Source: a virus (lineage: Duplodnaviria; Heunggongvirae; Uroviricota; Caudoviricetes). From it: a stretch of 29,803 nt of DNA. The stretch is taken from positions 1 through 29,803 of IMG/VR virus record IMGVR_UViG_2571042390_000006, one strand, 5' to 3'. The translations under genes were made by a program, and so were the position numbers. Under the pieces are notes generated by a model. That model worked only from the letters and a program-made list of their open reading frames with translations. It was not told the DNA's origin and did not search any database. Shown piece by piece: positions 1-28,887 of the stretch. The stretch's first letter is position 1. Each line of letters opens with the position of its first letter.

Positions 1-1002
1 TTACCCTCTATTGTCAAAAGGGTTCAATTCAACAGCAGCCTCTAAATGACCTGGAGCAAAATGCGCATAACGCATAGTCATTTTTATATCGCTATGCCCC
101 AGTATTTTTTGCAACACAAGAATATTTCCGCCCCGCATCATAAAATGACTGGCAAACGTGTGACGTAGCACATGAGTTAATTGCCCATCAGGAAGCTCGA
201 TCTTCGCTCTCTTAATTGCAGCGTCAAAAGCCTCATAACATGGTGAAAATAGCGCTCCTCGTTTTTTGGGAAGCATAGCCTGCAATTGAGGTGAAATCGG
301 TACAGTGCGGTTCTTCTTTCCTTTAGTTTTAACAAATGTGATTCGACCGGGCAGTACTTGAGATTGCTTTAACCCTTCTGCTTCACTCCACCGAGCACCA
401 GTCGCAAGCCCAATACGGACAACAACCCCCAAATCTTTATTCCGTGACTCATCACACGCAATCAGAAGGCGTTCAATCTCATCTACATACAGAAACGCCA
501 GTTCCTTTTCTTCCTCACGAAACTTGCGAATACCAGTCAGGGGGTTTTCACCAGACCACTCCCCAAGGCGCTTCAGTTCGGCAAAAACAGCATGTAGATA
601 TGACTGCTCGCGATTAACGGTTGCTTCACTAAGTTTTTTCTTCCCCTTGGGATTCCACTCTCCTGATAACCTTCTTTCCCGATAAGTGGCAAACATATTT
701 TTGTCAAACTGAGAAGCAAATGGATCTCCCAGCCTGGAACAAATCGCCTCAAGTTTGACTTTGCGCTCTGCACCAGAGGACAAGGTTTTACCGTACATCT
801 CAAACCAACGAGCAATCAACTCAGAAAGACGAGGACCAGAACCATCTTGAAACTCGTCTCCAACTCTACTATTCATTAAACGGCGCTCATAAGAGAGCGC
901 CTCACTTTTTGTCGCAAACTGTTTACGAATGCGTTTTCCCGATGCCCCGTAGGGATAACATTCGCAAAGCCATTTACCTGATGGAATCTTACGAACCGAC
1001 AT
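1..1002 (-). CDS. int: Phage integrase (tyrosine recombinase)
   Basis: 333-aa ORF with C-terminal catalytic signature HVLRHTFASHFMMRGGNILVLQKILGHSDIKMTMRYAHF (R..HxxR..Y box). Last gene of the leftward lysogenic operon. Confidence 0.93.
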   Translation of the reverse strand: MSVRKIPSGKWLCECYPYGASGKRIRKQFATKSEALSYERRLMNSRVGDEFQDGSGPRLSELIARWFEMYGKTLSSGAERKVKLEAICSRLGDPFASQFDKNMFATYRERRLSGEWNPKGKKKLSEATVNREQSYLHAVFAELKRLGEWSGENPLTGIRKFREEEKELAFLYVDEIERLLIACDESRNKDLGVVVRIGLATGARWSEAEGLKQSQVLPGRITFVKTKGKKNRTVPISPQLQAMLPKKRGALFSPCYEAFDAAIKRAKIELPDGQLTHVLRHTFASHFMMRGGNILVLQKILGHSDIKMTMRYAHFAPGHLEAAVELNPFDNRG

Positions 1003-5299: not shown

Positions 5300-5562
5300 C
5301 AAAAAAACCGCTTGCCATGCCTCAATCGGTCAGGTTACATTTCCGCTGCAGCTCATAAAACGGGTGCCGGGATTCTCAACCCGATACAGAGCAAAGCGCA
5401 TAACCGCGCAAGCGGTTTTTTTGTGCGCACTGTATTGCCACGTCTTTTTCGCGTCAGAATTATGGCGGGGCGTACGGGGCCGACTTCGGTCGGGCCGGAT
5501 TCTTTGCTCTCCGGTGTTGAGAACCCTGTACGTCTCGCCACCCCGAGATTCTCAACTCTGGA
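5300..5562. other. Structured non-coding region (nested inverted repeats, three TTCTCAAC motifs, UUCG-loop hairpin)
   Basis: No convincing ORF. 9-bp inverted repeat at about 5307-5315 and 5408-5416; about 27-bp imperfect inverted repeat at 5368-5397 and 5497-5526; third direct TTCTCAAC copy near 5548; GGCCGAC-TTCG-GTCGG(G)CC hairpin near 5478-5496. Confidence 0.3.
5403..5422 (+). terminator. Candidate intrinsic terminator
   Basis: ACCGC-GCAA-GCGGT hairpin followed by a run of seven T, about 120 nt after the 4980..5279 stop. The stem is short. The right arm also pairs with AAAAAAACCGCTTGC at about 5301-5315. Confidence 0.4.
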
Positions 5563-9175: not shown

Positions 9176-10135
9176 ATGAAAATTTGTATCGACGACGGCT
9201 CCACCAACATCAAGCTGGCATGGACTGAGAACGGCGAACGCCGCAACGCCATCAGCCCGAACAGCTTCAAGTCGGAATGGTCTGCGCCGTTCGGTGGCAC
9301 GCAGCCCGCGAACTACATGCTTGATGGCGTGCGCTATGGTTTTGATCCGGTCAGCGATCGCTTTGTCCAGACAACCGACACGCAATACCAGTACAGCGAT
9401 GTGAATGTCATTGCCATTCATCACGCGCTGGTCAAATCAGGCATCACGCCACAGGAGGTGGATGTGGTTGTCACCCTGCCACTGAGCGAGTATTTCGACA
9501 CAAACGCACAGCCGGACATGGCCAACATCAACCGCAAAAAAGCGAACGTTATGCGCCCGGTGGAGTACCAGAACGGCGAAGCATTCACTATCCGTAACGT
9601 ACGGGTTATGCCTGAATCCATTCCGGCTGGCTTTAAGGCACTGGCTGACATGAGTCCGTTTGAATCCCTGCTGATTGTGGATTTAGGCGGAACCACGCTG
9701 GATGTGGCAAAGGTTCAGGGACAACTGGCAGGTATCAGCCAGGTGTTTTGCGATCCACACGTAGGCGTTTCCCTGATGGCCGATGCCGTACTGTCGGTGA
9801 TGGCCACTAACGGTATGCGTACCAGTCACCACATCGCCAATACCATTATCGAACATCGCCATGATGAAGCCTGGCTGCGCCAGCACATCCACAATGACGC
9901 GCATTACGCCAGCCTGATGGCGGTTATTCGTGAAAAGGAAGAAACACTGAAACAACGCGTGATCCGCGCGCTGGCGGGTTTTTCGGGTTACGGGCGGGTG
10001 ATGGTTGTCGGTGGCGGGGCGGAGATTGTGGCACCCGCTATCCGCGAAGCCTGCGGAGTTAATGCGACTTTCATCGCGGACGGGGTGCCACAGTTTGCTC
10101 TGGTTAATGGGCTGTACGCAATGGACAAGGAGTAA
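9176..10135 (+). CDS. parM: ParM/StbA-family actin-like segregation ATPase
   Basis: 319 aa. N-terminus MKICIDDGSTNIKLAW and the motifs VMPESIPAG, DLGGTTLD and VVGGGAE align with plasmid R1 ParM as I recall it. AAGGA RBS. Confidence 0.82.
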   Translation: MKICIDDGSTNIKLAWTENGERRNAISPNSFKSEWSAPFGGTQPANYMLDGVRYGFDPVSDRFVQTTDTQYQYSDVNVIAIHHALVKSGITPQEVDVVVTLPLSEYFDTNAQPDMANINRKKANVMRPVEYQNGEAFTIRNVRVMPESIPAGFKALADMSPFESLLIVDLGGTTLDVAKVQGQLAGISQVFCDPHVGVSLMADAVLSVMATNGMRTSHHIANTIIEHRHDEAWLRQHIHNDAHYASLMAVIREKEETLKQRVIRALAGFSGYGRVMVVGGGAEIVAPAIREACGVNATFIADGVPQFALVNGLYAMDKE

Positions 10136-10139
10136 ACCA

Positions 10140-10451
10140 ATGACGACACCAACCAGACGGATAAGTTTCTATCTGAAGCCCGCCGCCGTCAAGAACGAAG
10201 GCGAAGCATGCGCCTGGCTGGACAGCCTTACACCAGAAGCCCGCAAAAGCGGCCAACGCGTGGCTTTTCTGGCCGGGCTGGCACTTCTGAAAATGAATCC
10301 GGCAGAGGCTTACCGACTGGCTGCATGGGCTGATGATGAGGCGTTATCAGTGACACAAACCAGGACAGAACGCCCCGCGTCACAGCCAGTATCAGCCGCA
10401 CAGATAACCAGTCAGATGGCCGGAAATATCCGGGCGTTATTTCCCGAATAA
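10140..10451 (+). CDS. parR: ParR-like centromere-binding adaptor (RHH)
   Basis: Internal ATG directly after the parM stop with an AAGGAG RBS. RRISFYLKP...WLDSLTPEARKSGQRVAFLAGLAL...NIRALFPE parallels R1 ParR (RRTIAFKLNP...TLDSIPQGERSRLNRAALTAGLAL...NILRSLFPKE). Confidence 0.7.
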   Translation: MTTPTRRISFYLKPAAVKNEGEACAWLDSLTPEARKSGQRVAFLAGLALLKMNPAEAYRLAAWADDEALSVTQTRTERPASQPVSAAQITSQMAGNIRALFPE

Positions 10452-10514
10452 CACAACATCAGGGCGCATCCGCCCTGATGACTTTAACCCGGGAGCATAA
10501 ACAAGGGGGACACA

Positions 10515-10847
10515 ATGCAACACATTGACAGAGAAAAAGCGCAGCGACTGATTGAGCGGATGGAAGCGCTGGCGAAAGAAGAAAATGTCAACATCCAAAA
10601 AATAGCTGAATGTGGCCAGATAGTTCTTCGTCGTGAAAAAGACCTCAAACAACTGATGTCTGGCGAAACCAGCAAAACATGGACTTCAGGCGAGAAGACG
10701 GTTTATTGCAGTTTCTGCAATAAATCCCAGTACGAAGTCACAAAGGTGATTGCCGGACCGTCTGTTTACATCTGCAATGAGTGCGTGGATTTGTGCAATG
10801 AAATTATCAGGAAAGAAGTGACAGACAAAAAGGAAAAAAACGCATGA
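10515..10847 (+). CDS. Stand-alone ClpX-type C4 zinc-binding-domain protein with N-terminal coiled coil
   Basis: 110 aa. C-terminal [38 protein letters not shown] is near-identical to the N-terminal zinc-binding domain of enterobacterial ClpX ([39 protein letters not shown], from memory). No AAA+ module. AAGGGGGA RBS. Confidence 0.75.
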
Positions 10848-19007: not shown

Positions 19008-19624
19008 TGGCATTCAGAATGAGTGAACAATCACGTACTGTAAAAATTTATAACCTGCTGGCCGGAACTAATGAGTTTATTGGTGAAGGTGACGCATATA
19101 TTCCACCTCATACAGGGCTGCCAGCTAATTCTACAGATATCGCCCCACCGGAAATTCCTGCTGGCTTTGTGGCAATTTTTAACAGTGAAAATGAATCGTG
19201 GAATATTGTTGAAGACCATCGTGGTAAAACGGTCTATGACGTGGCATCGGGGGACGCGTTGTTTATTTCTGAACCCGGACCGCTACCAGAGAATGTCACC
19301 TGGTTGTCGCCAGCAGGGGAATATCAGAAGTGGGACGGCGTATCCTGGGTGAAGGATGAGGAAGCAGAAAAGCTGTTTCGGATACGGGAAGCGGAAGAGA
19401 AAAAGGCAAGGTTGATCCAGGAGGCAACAGATAACATCGCAATTCTGCAGGATGCAGTTAATCTTGAAATAGCAACAAACGAGGAAAATTCACAACTGGA
19501 TTCCTGGAGAAAATACAGAGTATTAGTGAGTAGAATTGACACCAGTACAGCTCCGGATATCGTATGGCCAGAGCTGATGAATCAGGGTTATGTGCGGGAG
19601 GACGAGCAGATAACTTCAGACTGA
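19007..19624 (+). CDS. G: Tail fiber assembly chaperone (gpG/Tfa family)
   Basis: 205 aa. Start overlaps the H stop (TAATG). C-terminal region [23 protein letters not shown] is typical of Tfa proteins. Confidence 0.8.
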
Positions 19625-20151
19625 AATTTAGTGATGAATGTTGAATCATCAGGAATATCATGCAATACCAATGCATGAGCACCTATTGTGACATTGTTTC
19701 CTATACGCACTTTGCCACCAAGAATGGTGGCATTACAACCAATGGTCACATTATGTCCTATAACAATATCCATATCATTAAAATCACCACGTAGCCCAAT
19801 AGTTACCCCCGGTTTTATTGAACAATTTTCACCGATTGTTACTTTGTGACCGATAACAACACTGTTGAGATAAGAAATATCAAAGCCTTTCCCTATATTT
19901 ACAGTTAAAGGGACTGTTACATTATATTTATCAAGAATGAAACGTTCTATTTTCCCCGCAATCTTCCGGCAGTATCCGCCTTTATCAAAAAGGTATTTGG
20001 CTATGCGCCACCAAAATAAATAACGAAGTCTTCTATGTTTTATTGCGCGAACAATTGCCTTTCGCCAGGAGAAAGGACGCTCGCTACCGATTACTTCATA
20101 GTGAATACAGTCTTTAAGTTCATTAATATTCATATCTCTATTATTCAGCAT
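19588..20151 (-). CDS. Hexapeptide-repeat (left-handed beta-helix) acetyltransferase, CysE/WcaB-like
   Basis: 187 aa with repeated [LIV]-G-x-x-x-x hexapeptides ([22 protein letters not shown]...[34 protein letters not shown]). AT-rich. Convergent with G and overlaps its 3' end. Occupies the position of Z/fun in P2. Confidence 0.78.
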
Positions 20152-25889: not shown

Positions 25890-26046
25890 AGCTTCAGCCC
25901 CTTGTATCCGTTAAATGATTCGGCAACAATCATCACCCACCACGCGCGTAATCTCACCCCTGCGCCGTTCTCTCGCCACGGCGACAACAAAAAGCAGTAA
26001 CCCCCTCCGCACGCACATGCGACCATGCCGCACAGGGAGGGAGCAG

Positions 26047-27156
26047 ATGACCGACACCACCATGCAATTGCTCAGTCAGGGCACAGACCCCGTAAAAATG
26101 CCGGATTTTGATATTCTCGCGGAGGGTAAAACGCTGTCAGGCGTGGCAGAGCGCCTGATGAGCCTGTCACTGACCGACAACCGGGGATTTGAGGCGGACC
26201 AGCTCACCATCACGCTGGATGATGCGGATGGTCAGTTGCAGCTACCGCCACGGGGCGCGCGCCTGACGGTTCTCATTGGCTGGAAGGGAGAACCGCTGAC
26301 AGAAAAAGGCACTTACATTGTTGATGAAATCGCTCACGAAGGACCGCCGGACAGGCTGACTGTTTCAGCCAGAAGCGCAGATTTTCGGGATGAATTTAAC
26401 GTTAAACGTGAGGTGTCCTGGCATGATGTGACCGTTGAGCGTGTGGTATCCGCCATCGCTCATCGGTATGGTCTGAAACCGCAAATCAGCGAAATGCTGA
26501 TGGATATCGAAATCGACCACGCCGACCAGACCGAAGAAAGCGACATGTCCTTCCTTACGCGCATGGCGGAAATGCTGGGCGCAATCACTACGGTAAAAAG
26601 CGGTAATCTGTTATTCATCATGCCAGGCGGTGGCGTGAACGCACAGGGCCAGCCGTTGCCCTCGTTCGCCATCACGCGCAGCAGTGGCGATCGCCATCAG
26701 TTCCGCATTGCTGACCGCGAAGCGTATACGGGGGTACGCGCTTACTGGCTTGATCTTAATTACGGGAAAAAGAAAAAAGTCAGCGTGAAACGCCGCAAAC
26801 CGCCAAAACCCAAAAAGGAGAAAAGCAGCAGCCGTGAAGGTGATTATATGGAAGGCGCGGAAGGCAATGTGTTTGTGTTACGCAAGACCTATCAGAACGA
26901 ACAGGCAGCAAGACGCGCAGCGGCGGCAAAGTGGCAGCAGCTACAACGCGGAGCCGCATCATTCTCCATCACGCTGGCGCGTGGACGTGCAGAACTCTAC
27001 CCCGAAATGCATGGTACGGTAACAGGATTTAAAAGCGAGATTGATAATCAGGACTGGATCATTGCAAAAGCCGAGCACACTATTGATAACAGCGGCTTTA
27101 CCACGCAGCTTGAGCTTGAGGCAAAAATCCCGGAATGGATAGCGGAAACAGAGTGA
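26047..27156 (+). CDS. D: Tail protein / late control gene D protein (gpD family)
   Basis: Internal ATG with a GGGAGGG RBS; about 369 aa, similar in length to P2 D. Divergent from FI. Confidence 0.82.
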   Translation: MTDTTMQLLSQGTDPVKMPDFDILAEGKTLSGVAERLMSLSLTDNRGFEADQLTITLDDADGQLQLPPRGARLTVLIGWKGEPLTEKGTYIVDEIAHEGPPDRLTVSARSADFRDEFNVKREVSWHDVTVERVVSAIAHRYGLKPQISEMLMDIEIDHADQTEESDMSFLTRMAEMLGAITTVKSGNLLFIMPGGGVNAQGQPLPSFAITRSSGDRHQFRIADREAYTGVRAYWLDLNYGKKKKVSVKRRKPPKPKKEKSSSREGDYMEGAEGNVFVLRKTYQNEQAARRAAAAKWQQLQRGAASFSITLARGRAELYPEMHGTVTGFKSEIDNQDWIIAKAEHTIDNSGFTTQLELEAKIPEWIAETE

Positions 27157-27198: not shown

Positions 27199-27459
27199 AT
27201 GTTCCGTTGTCCGCTTTGTGGCGCATCTGCCCGTATCCGCACCAGTCGTCCGGAAAATGATTCAAACACCGTGCGGCAAAAGTATTACCAGTGTAACAAC
27301 CTGGAATGCGGCGTATGCTTCTCAACACTGGAAGCTTTCCATAAATTCACATCGAAACACGCCTCCGGCGTTCACTCTTCAGAAGGTATCCCGTGGCATG
27401 AACTGCCAGCTTCACACAGGGGAAACAATCAGATGAGCTTGCCTTTACCTCAGAATTAA
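27199..27459 (+). CDS. ogr: Ogr/Delta-family zinc-finger late transcription activator
   Basis: MFRCPLCGASARIRTS...YYQCNNLECGVCF: CxxC...CxxxxC zinc-finger arrangement and N-terminus as in P2 Ogr. 86 aa, longer than P2 Ogr. Confidence 0.8.
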   Translation: MFRCPLCGASARIRTSRPENDSNTVRQKYYQCNNLECGVCFSTLEAFHKFTSKHASGVHSSEGIPWHELPASHRGNNQMSLPLPQN

Positions 27460-27648
27460 CAGGCAGAATTGCCGGAGTAACAAAAAAGCGATAGATTACG
27501 TGCGGGTGCCTTTCGGCTGATGGTCGGAGGGAATACCCGAAGGCCGGATGTGGAAAGGCCCCGGAAAACATTTCTGTTTAACCGAGGCCCTAACCCGTCA
27601 ACCTAGCAAGTGATAGGTTAGCGCCTCTCCAACAAAGGAGCAAGCGCT

Positions 27649-27789
27649 ATGTCGCAAAAATCGCTTACGGCCATCACGTTCTGCGTGACGGTAATCCTCA
27701 TCATCTGGATGCTGCACGGTTCGCTGTGTGAAATACGGATGAGCTTCTGGGGAGCGGAGTTTGCGGCGTTCTTACAGTGTAAGCAGTAA
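27649..27789 (+). CDS. Hok/Gef-family type I toxin (46 aa)
   Basis: AAGGAG RBS. Product MSQKSLTAITFCVTVILIIWMLHGSLCEIRMSFWGAEFAAFLQCKQ has an N-terminal TM helix, the SLCEIR signature and an AAFL.CK tail as in HokA/Hok. Below the ORF-track size cut-off. Confidence 0.7.
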   Translation: MSQKSLTAITFCVTVILIIWMLHGSLCEIRMSFWGAEFAAFLQCKQ

Positions 27790-27877
27790 GGAAACCGCGA
27801 CGGGGAGGCAACTCCCCGTCAATCGGTTGCCGGGGTAAGGCCGATAAGGCACCCTATCTCATAGGCATGAATAACAA

Positions 27878-27910
27878 CCCCGCAGCGTAAAAACTGCGGG
27901 GTTTCTTTTT
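27878..27910 (+). terminator. Rho-independent terminator (end of the hok-like transcript)
   Basis: CCCCGCAG-CGTAAAAA-CTGCGGGG followed by TTTCTTTTT. Confidence 0.7.
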
Positions 27911-27978
27911 GGAACTCTCACTAGCTAGTGAGCCGTTAACTGCACATAATGCTCGCACAACAAATCAGTTAAAAGAGA

Positions 27979-28260
27979 TTACTCAGCATTCTCCTGCTTC
28001 CATTGCCGGATCATTTCATCGGTAACATCACTTTCATAACATACCACGTCATACCCTCCAGTACGGCTATATGCACTGCGTCCACCACATCTACTACCAT
28101 TCCTTGCATGATTATACGGACACGCACAATTGCCTGGATAAGATTCAATGGATTCTTTAATTATTTCTTTCTTGATCTGAGCATCTGACTTTCCTGTTGC
28201 TGCATACCCACTAAAAGATACCAAACAAAGGCAGATTGCCATTAATAAACCACATCGCAT
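27979..28260 (-). CDS. Small secreted Cys-containing protein of unknown function
   Basis: The internal start gives MRCGLLMAICLCLVSFSGYAA, a signal-peptide-like N-terminus. The mature part has four Cys (NCACPY...RCGG...VCY). AT-rich. The track ORF extends to 28374 with a TTG start. Confidence 0.45.
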   Translation of the reverse strand: MRCGLLMAICLCLVSFSGYAATGKSDAQIKKEIIKESIESYPGNCACPYNHARNGSRCGGRSAYSRTGGYDVVCYESDVTDEMIRQWKQENAE

Positions 28261-28493
28261 ACCGATACACTCTATTACTAACCAATCATAGCCCACATCA
28301 TAAAATCGAGATGAGGAGTACAACACCTTTAACAAGAAGGTGCCATCACGATAATATGCCGTGCAATTCATCAAAAAAAAGATCTATATCAAAGAGATAG
28401 AGTTATTATCAGTGCTGCAGACATCAGCATTCGAGGCAGCAGAAAGACAGTAAATCTAACGAATTTGTCTTTTTCTCAGGATGTTGTCAGATT

Positions 28494-28600
28494 AAAAAAG
28501 ATAGAGTAGCGCAGACACCTTTTGGTGGATGGTAGGAGGAAAAATGAAGTTGAGTGGGAAGATCCCAGAAAAAACTTTGGTTTAACCAAGGCCCTAGTTC
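28494..28600 (+). other. Second copy of the hok-leader-like sequence without an intact toxin ORF
   Basis: About 110 nt aligning at roughly 65-70 percent with the region upstream of the hok-like ORF (shared GATAGA, GATGGT.GGAGG and GTTTAACC.AGGCCCTA blocks). No Hok-like peptide downstream. Confidence 0.3.
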
Positions 28601-28733
28601 AATATGCGAAATGCAGATGAGTTGCAGGAGAGTTTTGCTTCACCCTTAGAGTTTAAACAGACGTGTACTATCATTATTTCTGCATATCGCCACACCATCG
28701 CCACTTTACCGCCATTTAACAAAATACAAATAC

Positions 28734-28758
28734 AAAAAAACCACCCGAAGGTGGTTTC
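28734..28758 (-). terminator. Rho-independent terminator of the tRNA operon
   Basis: ACCACC-CGAA-GGTGGT hairpin preceded on the plus strand by seven A (a U-run on the minus strand), about 45 nt beyond the 3' end of leuZ. Confidence 0.7.
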
Positions 28759-28800
28759 ACGACACTGCTTATTGCTTTGATTTTATTCTTATCTTTCCCA

Positions 28801-28887
28801 TGGTACCCGGAGCGGGACTTGAACCCGCACAGCGCGAACGCCGAGGGATTTTAAATCCCTTGTGTCTACCGATTCCACCATCCGGGC
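28801..28887 (-). tRNA. leuZ: tRNA-Leu (anticodon UAA)
   Basis: Reverse complement reads GCCCGGATGGTGGAATCGGTAGACACAAGGGATTTAAAATCCCTCGGCG...GGGTACCA: cloverleaf, long variable arm, anticodon loop UUUAAAA, 3' CCA. Confidence 0.95.

What the first reader, a model, noticed from the sequence alone, without database searches (positions are those of the whole stretch)
27480..28620. Hok-family toxin locus at the right junction, with a second leader copy lacking the toxin ORF
A 46-aa ORF (27649..27789) with a strong RBS carries the Hok/Gef signature: an N-terminal TM helix, SLCEIR and an AAFL.CK tail. It is preceded by about 160 nt of GC-rich leader and followed by a strong intrinsic terminator, matching the hok mRNA layout. 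About 1 kb downstream, after a minus-strand gene for a small secreted protein, a roughly 110-nt segment (28494..28600) repeats the leader at about 65-70 percent identity, but no Hok-like peptide follows. This looks like either a decayed second copy or a leader-derived RNA. Together with parMR, the element carries homologues of both plasmid R1 stabilisation systems. The Sok-like antisense gene was not located by eye.
Basis: partly seen in the sequence, partly recalled or inferred. Interest (0 to 1): 0.5.

Follow-up and report, generated by a model that had tools for sequence, protein, structure and literature searches.

The report
Prophage hok/sok locus and hok pseudogene
Just inside the right end of a P88-type (P2-like) E. 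coli prophage sits an ordinary, already catalogued Hok/Sok small-toxin and antisense-RNA module, and 0.7 kb further on lies the decayed, internally deleted remnant of a second one.

Summary
ORF 27649-27789 encodes a 46-aa Hok/Gef peptide (Pfam PF01848, 30.1 bits, cutoff 22). RefSeq already annotates it as WP_000078920.1, and phage P88 carries it as gp52. It differs by one residue from peptide 72_1621, which a 2026 preprint cloned for toxicity assays that found 42 of 45 homologues toxic and does not list it among the three exceptions. The RNA layout is classic hok. A ~407-nt mRNA (27504-27910) has its 5' tac closed onto a 3' fbi (z = -7.3), and this closure is kept with compensatory changes in 11 homologues. 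One departure from the R1 paradigm: the canonical mok start is absent (GTC replaces ATG). Only a short upstream ORF (27548-27613) remains. The second "leader copy" (28494-28597, 71% identical, far above chance) is a hok pseudogene. A frameshifted remnant of hok codons ~24-46 follows it directly (28597-28660). The Sok promoter, SD, start codon and TM helix are deleted. It is also the fastest-diverging segment of the prophage right end. Everything lies inside the prophage, because attR starts at 28732. Verdict: ordinary, low interest.

The parts
27469..27497 (+). predicted hok promoter: -35 TTGCCG (27469-27474), 17-nt spacer, -10 TAGATT (27492-27497)
   Evidence: Read from the sequence. TTGCC and TA.A.TA are conserved in the 7 homologues of the first alignment. 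The -10 lies 6 nt upstream of position 1 of the Rfam model. Not tested experimentally.
27504..27910 (+). full-length hok mRNA (~407 nt), from the predicted 5' end to the end of the terminator T run
   Evidence: The Rfam sok/hok-leader model aligns from 27504. MFE is -178.4 kcal/mol, z = -7.28, with the 5' end closed onto 27840-27854. The RNAalifold consensus of 11 homologues has 109 pairs, 19 of them with compensatory changes.
27504..27518 (+). tac element (5' end). It pairs with fbi in the full-length RNA and with 27522-27538 in the 3'-truncated RNA.
   Evidence: Folds. The element is near-invariant in the 11 homologues.
27548..27613 (+). 21-codon upstream ORF (MWKGPGKHFCLTEALTRQPSK) with a GAAGG Shine-Dalgarno-like motif at 27539-27543. 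It is the only candidate mok-like leader ORF.
   Evidence: The ATG is present in 9 of 11 homologues, but ORF length varies from 15 to 79 codons. In E. albertii the same ATG opens a 79-aa ORF that overlaps hok. The GAAGG motif is partly paired in the full-length fold and largely freed in the truncated fold.
27548..27607 (-). predicted Sok antisense RNA (~60 nt): 5' tail opposite the hypervariable segment 27590-27607, then a hairpin opposite 27557-27586
   Evidence: Positional homology with the RefSeq-annotated sokB and sokC of K-12. Fold is -26.3 kcal/mol, z = -3.15. No expression data.
27597..27599 (+). GTC at the position where mokB has its ATG. The mok-homologous frame is open from 27594 to 27731 but has no start codon.
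   Evidence: Alignment with hokB/mokB. No ATG/GTG/TTG ORF reads into hok in 10 of 11 homologues.
27615..27643 (-). predicted Sok promoter: -35 TTGCTC (complement of 27638-27643), 17-nt spacer, -10 TAACCT (complement of 27615-27620); start at G opposite 27607
   Evidence: AGGTTA is invariant and GAGCAA is kept in 10 of 11 homologues. The geometry matches that upstream of annotated sokB. The match to the sigma-70 consensus is weak and the promoter scan did not pick it up.
27635..27640 (+). hok Shine-Dalgarno AAGGAG, sequestered in the hairpin 27621-27648
   Evidence: pairs in columns 122-153, largely invariant.
27649..27789 (+). hok coding sequence, 46 aa, Hok cluster 72 / HokA-like, with both Cys (C27, C44) encoded
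   Evidence: Pfam PF01848. PHROG 251, E 2.5e-23. RefSeq WP_000078920.1. One residue from the cloned peptide 72_1621. dN/dS 0.14-0.5 among homologues.
27799..27820 (+). stable 3' stem-loop, the likely 3' end of the processed active mRNA
   Evidence: Pairs in columns 306-329 show compensatory changes. The role is inferred from the R1 model (PMC9841398).
27840..27854 (+). fbi element GCCGATAAGGCACCC, pairing with tac
   Evidence: The sequence varies among homologues while the pairing is kept.
27876..27910 (.). bidirectional intrinsic terminator (stem 27876-27903 plus T run)
27979..28260 (-). 93-aa small Cys-rich protein with a signal-peptide-like N-terminus; function unknown; not part of the toxin system
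   Evidence: RefSeq CDS WP_071529678.1. phrog_27544. 96-97% conserved between prophage variants.
28494..28597 (+). hok pseudogene, part 1: remnant of the -10 region, tac and leader nt ~1-90
   Evidence: 71% identity to 27482-27592. nhmmer E 1.4e-7, profile positions 6-90. No better folding than shuffles on either strand.
28597..28660 (+). hok pseudogene, part 2: remnant of hok codons ~24-46 with a 4-nt deletion and no stop codon. Profile positions ~91-213 (Sok target, Sok promoter, SD, ATG, TM helix) are deleted.
   Evidence: nhmmer profile positions 217-284, contiguous and collinear with part 1. E is 0.061 in the whole window. In the variants of other strains E is 1.5e-5 and 2.6e-5. This is the fastest-diverging segment, at 83%.
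28686..28704 (.). two ATCGCCAC repeats, likely integrase arm-type sites of attP/attR
   Evidence: The same GTGGCGAT motif is repeated next to int at attL. Assignment as Int sites is an inference.
28732..28855 (.). att repeat: 3' half of tRNA-Leu (leuZ) plus its terminator, duplicated at attL; the phage/chromosome boundary
   Evidence: Genomes without the prophage match only from 28732 onward. The ~124-bp repeat was found at both prophage ends in strain FORC_031.

Best explanation
This is a hok/sok-type type I toxin-antitoxin cassette, carried as standard cargo between ogr and attP of a P88-like (Xuanwuvirus, P2-like) prophage integrated at leuZ.

Proposed mechanism:
1. A stable ~407-nt hok mRNA (27504-27910) is made in a closed, untranslatable form. 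The 5' tac is paired to the 3' fbi, and the hok SD is buried in a hairpin.
2. Slow 3' trimming back to the stem-loop at 27799-27820 lets tac refold locally and opens the leader.
3. An unstable ~60-nt antisense Sok RNA (about 27548-27607, minus strand) pairs with the leader and blocks expression or triggers decay.
4. When Sok supply stops, the 46-aa membrane peptide is made and damages the inner membrane.

Shown here: family membership of the peptide, the conserved RNA architecture, and the position of Sok by homology.
Inferred: transcription starts, processing, the action of Sok, and the biological role (prophage retention, lysis assistance or phage exclusion).

Unlike R1, the canonical mok start is missing, so the coupling step must differ. 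It may run through the short ORF 27548-27613, or through direct control of the hok SD.

The second 'leader copy' (28494-28660) is a dead hok gene. It is an old paralogue next to attP that lost its middle (Sok target and promoter, SD, ATG, TM helix) and its 3' UTR.
For: Peptide:
- Pfam HOK_GEF is above the gathering score, and PHROG 251 gives E 2.5e-23.
- RefSeq and P88 annotate the gene. The exact sequence occurs on at least 1000 contigs.
- It differs by one residue from 72_1621, a cluster-72 representative cloned for toxicity tests in bioRxiv 10.1101/2025.08.07.668861. There 42 of 45 peptides were toxic, and the three non-toxic ones belong to other clusters.
- dN/dS is 0.14-0.5.

RNA:
- The Rfam hok-leader/sok model aligns full length, E 4e-9.
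- The tac-fbi closure appears in the MFE, z = -7.3.
- The consensus structure of 11 homologues has 19 compensated pairs.
- A local tac hairpin forms in the truncated RNA.

Sok: the locus aligns with K-12 hokB/sokB and hokC/sokC, whose Sok RNAs are annotated. The segment under the Sok 5' tail is hypervariable, as expected for a specificity determinant.

Context: the same cassette follows ogr in P88, IHE3034 and other P2-like phages, and occurs at 83% identity in Stx2a phages.

Pseudogene.
Against: - The Rfam sok score (47.3) is below the gathering score (59).
- The predicted Sok and hok promoters match the sigma-70 consensus weakly and were not found by the scan.
- No transcript data were available.
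- The canonical mok ORF, required for Hok translation in R1 (PMC9841398), has no start codon in this subfamily. The locus could therefore be translationally silent, or regulated differently from the model stated.
- The second segment of the pseudogene is marginal on its own in this window (E 0.061). It rests on collinearity and on better scores in variants.
Confidence: 0.85

Rival explanations
1. The hok locus is intact in sequence but translationally silent. With the mok start codon lost (GTC at 27597-27599), Hok cannot be translated, as with the K-12 chromosomal hok loci that failed to mediate killing. The cassette would then be a neutral passenger.
For: No ATG/GTG/TTG ORF reads into hok in 10 of 11 homologues. 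In R1, mok translation up to the hok SD is mandatory (PMC9841398). Chromosomal hokA/B/C did not mediate post-segregational killing (preprint text).
Against: The hok ORF, its strong SD and the whole RNA switch are kept in all 11 homologues, with compensatory changes. dN/dS is 0.14-0.5. The cassette is spread over P2-like, Stx and lambdoid phages and an ICE-like element. A true dead copy, the one at 28494-28660, looks very different.
Confidence: 0.15
2. The second copy is a functional leader-derived RNA. Possibilities are an orphan Sok-like antitoxin, a decoy, or a terminator element read from the leuZ side, rather than a pseudogene.
For: It is retained in all 650 E. coli genomes that carry this prophage right end, even in deleted prophages. 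Its antisense strand has a small hairpin followed by U6.
Against: It lacks the Sok promoter and the Sok 5' recognition segment. Both strands fold no better than shuffles (z -0.26 and -0.17). It is the most diverged segment of the right end, at 83% against 92-97% for its neighbours. It is followed by a frameshifted hok coding remnant. Rfam finds nothing there even at E <= 10.
Confidence: 0.05
3. The second copy is part of the attP recombination arm (IHF, Cox or Int sites), and its resemblance to the hok leader is incidental to that role.
For: It lies 70-240 bp from the att core. Arm-type repeats lie at 28686-28704.
Against: The similarity to hok loci is far above chance and collinear over two hok segments. 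The recognisable arm repeats lie downstream of it. It diverges faster than the O157 attP arm.
Confidence: 0.05
4. The biological role of the live cassette is not prophage retention. It would be help with host lysis and phage release after induction, as shown for hokW-sokW of Stx2 prophage Sp5, or exclusion of other phages.
For: hokW-sokW facilitates Sp5 release (PMC8621323, abstract). [quoted passage not shown]
Against: Nothing here distinguishes the roles. The Sp5 hokW is a different paralogue: 51 aa, starting MKQQKAM.
Confidence: 0.4

Closest known systems
Hok cluster 72 of Escalera-Maurer et al. (bioRxiv 10.1101/2025.08.07.668861): peptides 72_1621 and 72_1589; equals RefSeq WP_000078920.1 and phage P88 gp52 (YP_009113095, 'MokW-like host killing')
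   Same: 72_1621 differs from this peptide by one residue (V15A). 72_1589 is identical to the Stx2a-phage homologue. The P88, IHE3034 and GMM076 peptides are identical to this one.
   Different: Nothing at the protein level. The preprint did not analyse mok, Sok or mRNA structure.
hok/sok/mok (parB) of plasmid R1
   Same: Same peptide family and an mRNA of ~400 nt. It shares tac/fbi closure, a local tac stem after 3' truncation, a sequestered hok SD, and an antisense RNA gene opposite the leader with its promoter overlapping the hok SD region.
   Different: There is no canonical mok start, only a short upstream ORF. The peptide is 46 aa rather than 52. The carrier is an integrating phage rather than a plasmid.
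E. coli K-12 hokB/sokB/mokB, hokC/sokC/mokC and hokA
   Same: The leaders align base for base over tac, the Sok hairpin, the GAGG box and CCTAGCAA. HokA is the nearest named protein model (NF007290, 35.8 bits) at 41% identity, and it too encodes both Cys.
   Different: The score is far below the HokA equivalog cutoff of 89. mokB and mokC have an ATG where this locus has GTC.
hokW-sokW of Stx2 prophage Sp5 (PMC8621323)
   Same: A prophage-borne hok/sok. The annotation label 'MokW-like' is borrowed from it.
   Different: It is a different paralogue: HokW is 51 aa and starts MKQQKAM...DYESEK (primers). The 46-aa locus found in Stx2a phages is a separate cassette.

Membership tests
Hok/Gef peptide family (Pfam PF01848) | Profile match at or above the curated gathering score | tested here: met
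   30.1 bits against cutoff 22, E 3.7e-7, residues 7-44 on profile positions 5-42 of 42. PHROG 251 E 2.5e-23.
Hok/Gef peptide family (Pfam PF01848) | Short peptide (~50 aa) with an N-terminal hydrophobic helix, an S-L-C-E motif and a conserved AAF tail; Cys pair as in HokA/HokB | tested here: met
C27 and C44 align with the Cys pair of HokA. The Cys pair is stated to be essential for HokB toxicity in the preprint.
Hok/Gef peptide family (Pfam PF01848) | Toxic to the membrane on expression | not testable with these tools
   Indirect only. The one-residue variant 72_1621 was cloned for drop assays. 42 of 45 tested peptides were toxic, and the three exceptions are from other clusters.
hok/sok/mok type I toxin-antitoxin locus (R1 parB paradigm) | ~400-nt mRNA whose 5' end (tac) pairs with a 3' element (fbi) | tested here: met
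   The MFE closes 27504-27518 on 27840-27854, z = -7.28. The pairing is kept in 11 homologues although the fbi sequence varies.
hok/sok/mok type I toxin-antitoxin locus (R1 parB paradigm) | Refolding of tac into a local stem once the 3' end is removed | tested here: met
   The predicted fold of 27504-27831 pairs nt 1-15 with nt 19-35. This is a prediction only.
hok/sok/mok type I toxin-antitoxin locus (R1 parB paradigm) | cis-encoded ~60-nt antisense Sok RNA with its own promoter opposite the leader | tested here: inconclusive
   Positional homology with annotated sokB/sokC places it at about 27548-27607. The hexamers TAACCT and TTGCTC are conserved, and the hairpin has z = -3.15. However, the promoter is weak by consensus and there are no transcript data.
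hok/sok/mok type I toxin-antitoxin locus (R1 parB paradigm) | mok ORF that starts within the Sok target and reads across the hok start (translational coupling) | tested here: not met
   GTC lies at the position of the mokB ATG. No ATG/GTG/TTG ORF enters hok in 10 of 11 homologues. Only E. albertii has a 79-aa overlapping ORF, and it starts from the upstream ATG.
Rfam RF01794 (sok / hok leader) | Covariance-model score at or above the gathering score (59 bits) | tested here: not met
   47.3 bits, E 4.1e-9, full-length alignment. Relatives score 42.1-62.5 bits, and only one of six passes. The second copy gives no hit even at E <= 10.
NCBIfam NF007290 HokA (equivalog) | Score at or above 89 bits | tested here: not met
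   35.8 bits. The peptide is HokA-like but not HokA.
hokW-sokW of Sp5 | Orthology to the characterised 51-aa HokW | tested here: not met
   The cloning primers give MKQQKAM... and ...DYESEK, which is unlike this peptide.
P88-like (Xuanwuvirus) P2-type prophage | P2-type late genes and ogr followed by the hok cassette; a parM identical to P88's; a tyrosine integrase and a tRNA-derived att repeat | tested here: met
   gpD, ogr, gpA and the integrase by Pfam. ParM is 100% identical to that of P88. The hok cassette is 93.8% identical to P88's. The att repeat is shown.

The most novel reading that the evidence does not exclude
Cluster-72 hok loci form a branch of the hok/sok family that works without mok. 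The canonical mok ATG is replaced (GTC at 27597-27599), yet the peptide stays under purifying selection. Hok translation and its repression by Sok must therefore use another route. One option is a short upstream ORF (27548-27613) whose SD is unmasked by the tac switch and whose start lies under the 3' end of Sok. Another is a standby-site or RNase III mechanism of the tisB/istR kind.
Probability: 0.3. Interest if true: 0.35.

Novelty: already known. Interest (0 to 1): 0.15.

Why it matters
It matters little beyond bookkeeping. It confirms that P88-type P2-like prophages carry, as standard cargo, relatives of both R1 stabilisation modules (parMR and hok/sok). This bears on how such prophages are retained, or how they time lysis.

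Two small points could interest type I toxin-antitoxin specialists. First, this abundant Hok cluster lacks the canonical mok start, so the R1 coupling model cannot apply unchanged. Second, a clear hok pseudogene sits beside a live copy. That gives a within-element contrast between a maintained hok locus and a decaying one.

Tried and rejected
1. Rfam at gathering thresholds found no hok/sok family. Only the permissive scan found the leader, below threshold.

2. I first took the 'MokW-like' label to mean orthology with the characterised hokW-sokW of Sp5. The primer sequences in PMC8621323 show a different 51-aa paralogue, so I rejected this.

3. I considered that 27928-28731 might be the remnant of an older tandem prophage, because O157:H7 has it without hok. 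I rejected this. In O157 an IS30 insertion has removed the gpD 3' end, ogr and hok. No att core lies between the two modules, and the att repeat starts only at 28732.

4. I looked for an ancestral, intact second hok next to a leuZ-type attP. An integrase-based scan of viral contigs returned prophage contigs cut right after int, which was uninformative. The phage collection has no match to 27922-28731. E. coli genomes have it only at leuZ, always in the decayed form.

5. The peptide-based scan of species-representative genomes gave only six loci. Three are in implausible hosts and are probably contamination.

6. K-12 hokA was of limited use for leader comparison, because IS150 disrupts it and the leader is shortened.

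7. The promoter scan found neither the hok nor the Sok promoter at its thresholds.

8. A mini-ORF GTG-ATA-GGT-TAG (27610-27621) was considered as a mok substitute. It is absent from 2 of 7 homologues and has no SD, so I dropped it.
Full report
**Setting.** The window is E. coli chromosome carrying a P2-like prophage. gpD (25915-27156) and ogr (27199-27459) are identified by Pfam. So are replication protein A, a tyrosine integrase (1-1002, minus strand), ParM (9176-10135) and ParR (within 10005-10451). To the right lie tRNA-Leu/Cys/Gly and pgsA. ParM is 100% identical to that of phage P88 (genus Xuanwuvirus). The region after ogr is 93.8% identical to P88.

**Prophage boundary.** Genomes without the prophage, including K-12, match only from 28732 onward. 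In strain FORC_031 a ~124-bp repeat, consisting of the 3' half of leuZ plus its terminator, flanks the prophage, with GTGGCGAT repeats in both arms. The phage/chromosome boundary is therefore 28731/28732. Everything in the finding is phage DNA, 70 bp to 1.25 kb inside the right end.

**The toxin gene.**
- ORF 27649-27789 (46 aa) has AAGGAG 8 nt upstream.
- It matches Pfam HOK_GEF above the gathering score (30.1 against 22 bits) and PHROG 251 (E 2.5e-23).
- Its nearest NCBIfam model is HokA, far below the equivalog cutoff (35.8 against 89).
- RefSeq annotates it as the Hok/Gef family protein WP_000078920.1. P88 annotates it as 'MokW-like host killing'.
- The exact sequence is recorded on at least 1000 contigs.
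- It is not the characterised HokW of Sp5, which is 51 aa and starts MKQQKAM (PMC8621323).
- It belongs to 'cluster 72' of a recent Hok survey (bioRxiv 10.1101/2025.08.07.668861). That study cloned the peptide 72_1621, which differs by one residue (V15A), and 72_1589, which is identical to the Stx2a-phage homologue. The text says 42 of 45 tested peptides were toxic and names three non-toxic ones from other clusters. [quoted passage not shown]
- Among six distinct homologues dN/dS is 0.14-0.5. These are rough values for a short gene that overlaps RNA structure.

**The RNA architecture.**
- The Rfam 'sok' model, which covers the hok leader in the sense orientation, aligns full length to 27504-27659. 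It scores 47.3 bits (E 4e-9), below the gathering score of 59. Relatives score 42-62 bits.
- The RNA 27504-27910 folds with z = -7.3, its first 15 nt paired to 27840-27854 (tac-fbi). The hok SD lies in a hairpin.
- I aligned 11 homologues: P2-like phages at three att sites, a Stx2a phage, a lambdoid prophage, an ICE-like element, Salmonella enterica, S. diarizonae and E. albertii.
- RNAalifold recovers the same closure plus a second long-range helix, the SD hairpin and the 3' stem-loop. There are 109 pairs, 19 of them with compensatory changes.
- The fbi sequence varies while tac is nearly invariant, and pairing is kept.
- With the 3' end cut back to the stem-loop at 27799-27820, tac refolds onto 27522-27538. 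This is the switch described for R1 (PMC9841398).
- An intrinsic terminator follows at 27876-27903.

**Sok.** I aligned the leader with K-12 hokB and hokC, whose sokB, sokC, mokB and mokC are annotated in RefSeq.
- This places Sok at about 27548-27607 on the minus strand.
- A -10 TAACCT (complement of 27615-27620) and a -35 TTGCTC (complement of 27638-27643) lie 17 nt apart. AGGTTA is invariant and GAGCAA is kept in 10 of the 11 homologues.
- The predicted RNA has a free 5' tail and a strong hairpin (z = -3.15).
- The 15-20 nt under the 5' tail are the most variable part of the leader. This fits a determinant that keeps paralogous systems from cross-reacting.
- All of this rests on homology. 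The promoter is weak by consensus, the scan did not find it, and I had no expression data.

**mok.** Where mokB has its ATG, this locus has GTC (27597-27599).
- The homologous frame stays open across the hok start but has no ATG, GTG or TTG. The same holds in 10 of 11 homologues.
- An ATG at 27548, preceded by GAAGG, is kept in 9 of 11. It opens an ORF of 15-79 codons, 21 here, ending at 27613.
- In E. albertii that ORF runs across hok like a true mok.
- The GAAGG motif is partly paired in the full-length fold and largely freed in the truncated one. This ORF may therefore have taken over the mok role.
- This point is inference, and it is the one real departure from the R1 paradigm.

**The second copy.**
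- 28494-28596 aligns to 27482-27592 at 71% identity, far above shuffles.
- It is about equally distant (70-75%) from every hok leader tested, so it is old and not a recent duplicate of the live copy.
- A profile of the full locus hits 28518-28597 (profile positions 6-90, E 1.4e-7). Directly adjoining and collinear, it also hits 28597-28660 (positions 217-284, the codons for ..SLCEIRMSFWGAEFAAFLQCKQ). E is 0.061 in the window, and 1.5e-5 and 2.6e-5 in the 85-87% variants of other strains.
- The remnant reads SICEMQMSCRR, then a 4-nt deletion, then FASPLEFKQ, with no stop codon.
- Missing are the Sok target and promoter, the SD, the ATG, the TM helix and the whole 3' UTR.
- Neither strand folds better than shuffled sequence.
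- It is the most diverged segment of the right end: 83% against 96-97% for the small gene and 92-93% for the intergenic DNA.
- It is present only at leuZ, in 650 genomes, and always in this form. It survives in O157:H7, where IS30 has removed the gpD 3' end, ogr and the live hok.
- It is a hok pseudogene, not a leader-derived RNA.

**Verdict.** The thing itself is ordinary. It is an annotated, catalogued Hok cluster whose near-identical peptide has been tested for toxicity, sitting in a known phage genus that typically carries it together with parMR. The biological role cannot be decided here. Prophage retention, help with lysis as for hokW-sokW, and phage exclusion all remain possible.

Noticed in passing
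window 5348-5545 (+): Rfam finds an isrK-like RNA (59.5 bits) followed by a C4 antisense RNA (78.5 bits), both above their gathering scores. They lie in the early region of this P2-like prophage. This is the P1/P7-type immunity RNA pair.
   Followed up: no
window 9176-10847 (+): parM (100% identical to P88 ParM) and parR are followed by a 110-aa ORF with a ClpX-type C4 zinc finger (64.7 bits). An actin-type partition system is standard in this genus of integrating P2-like phages. Its role there is unexplained.
   Followed up: partly
window 27979-28260 (-): A 93-aa protein with a signal-peptide-like N-terminus and four Cys (GNCACPYN...RCGGRSAYSRTGG). It matches phrog_27544, has no Pfam or NCBIfam family, and is 96-97% conserved between prophage variants, more than anything around it. 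It shares the bidirectional terminator with hok.
   Followed up: partly
window 19588-20151 (-): A hexapeptide-repeat acetyltransferase gene on the opposite strand next to the tail-fibre genes. RefSeq annotates it as serine acetyltransferase in a related strain. It is a likely moron.
   Followed up: no
L002 2491-4031 (E. coli O157:H7 Z1812): In O157:H7 the prophage at leuZ has an IS30 insertion. It truncates gpD and has removed ogr and the live hok cassette. The small secreted-protein gene and the hok pseudogene remain.
   Followed up: yes
L095 2398-2637 (E. albertii NBRC 107761): This is the only homologue in which the conserved upstream ATG opens a 79-aa ORF overlapping hok, that is, a complete mok-like frame. 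Its Hok also has one extra residue (47 aa).
   Followed up: partly
L092, L093, L096: hok loci that are E. coli-type or near E. coli-type (100%, 100% and 74% peptide identity) sit on contigs labelled Planococcaceae MAG, Vagococcus sp. and Xanthomonas pisi. This is probably enterobacterial contamination of those assemblies. In L092 the hok leader is masked by a run of N.
   Followed up: no
window 27590-27607 and alignment A4 columns 93-108: The stretch under the predicted Sok 5' tail is hypervariable, with indels, between otherwise 85-95% identical cassettes. Many genomes hold 2-8 related places. This suggests diversification to avoid Sok cross-talk.
   Followed up: partly
window 27604-27616 with 27820-27833 (A4 columns 104-116 with 332-345): The consensus fold contains a second long-range helix, pairing the Sok-target segment CCTAGCAAGTGA with AATCGGTTGCC..GGG just 3' of the stem-loop. 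It has compensatory changes (AU to GC in 3 sequences). It would hide the Sok target in the full-length RNA.
   Followed up: no
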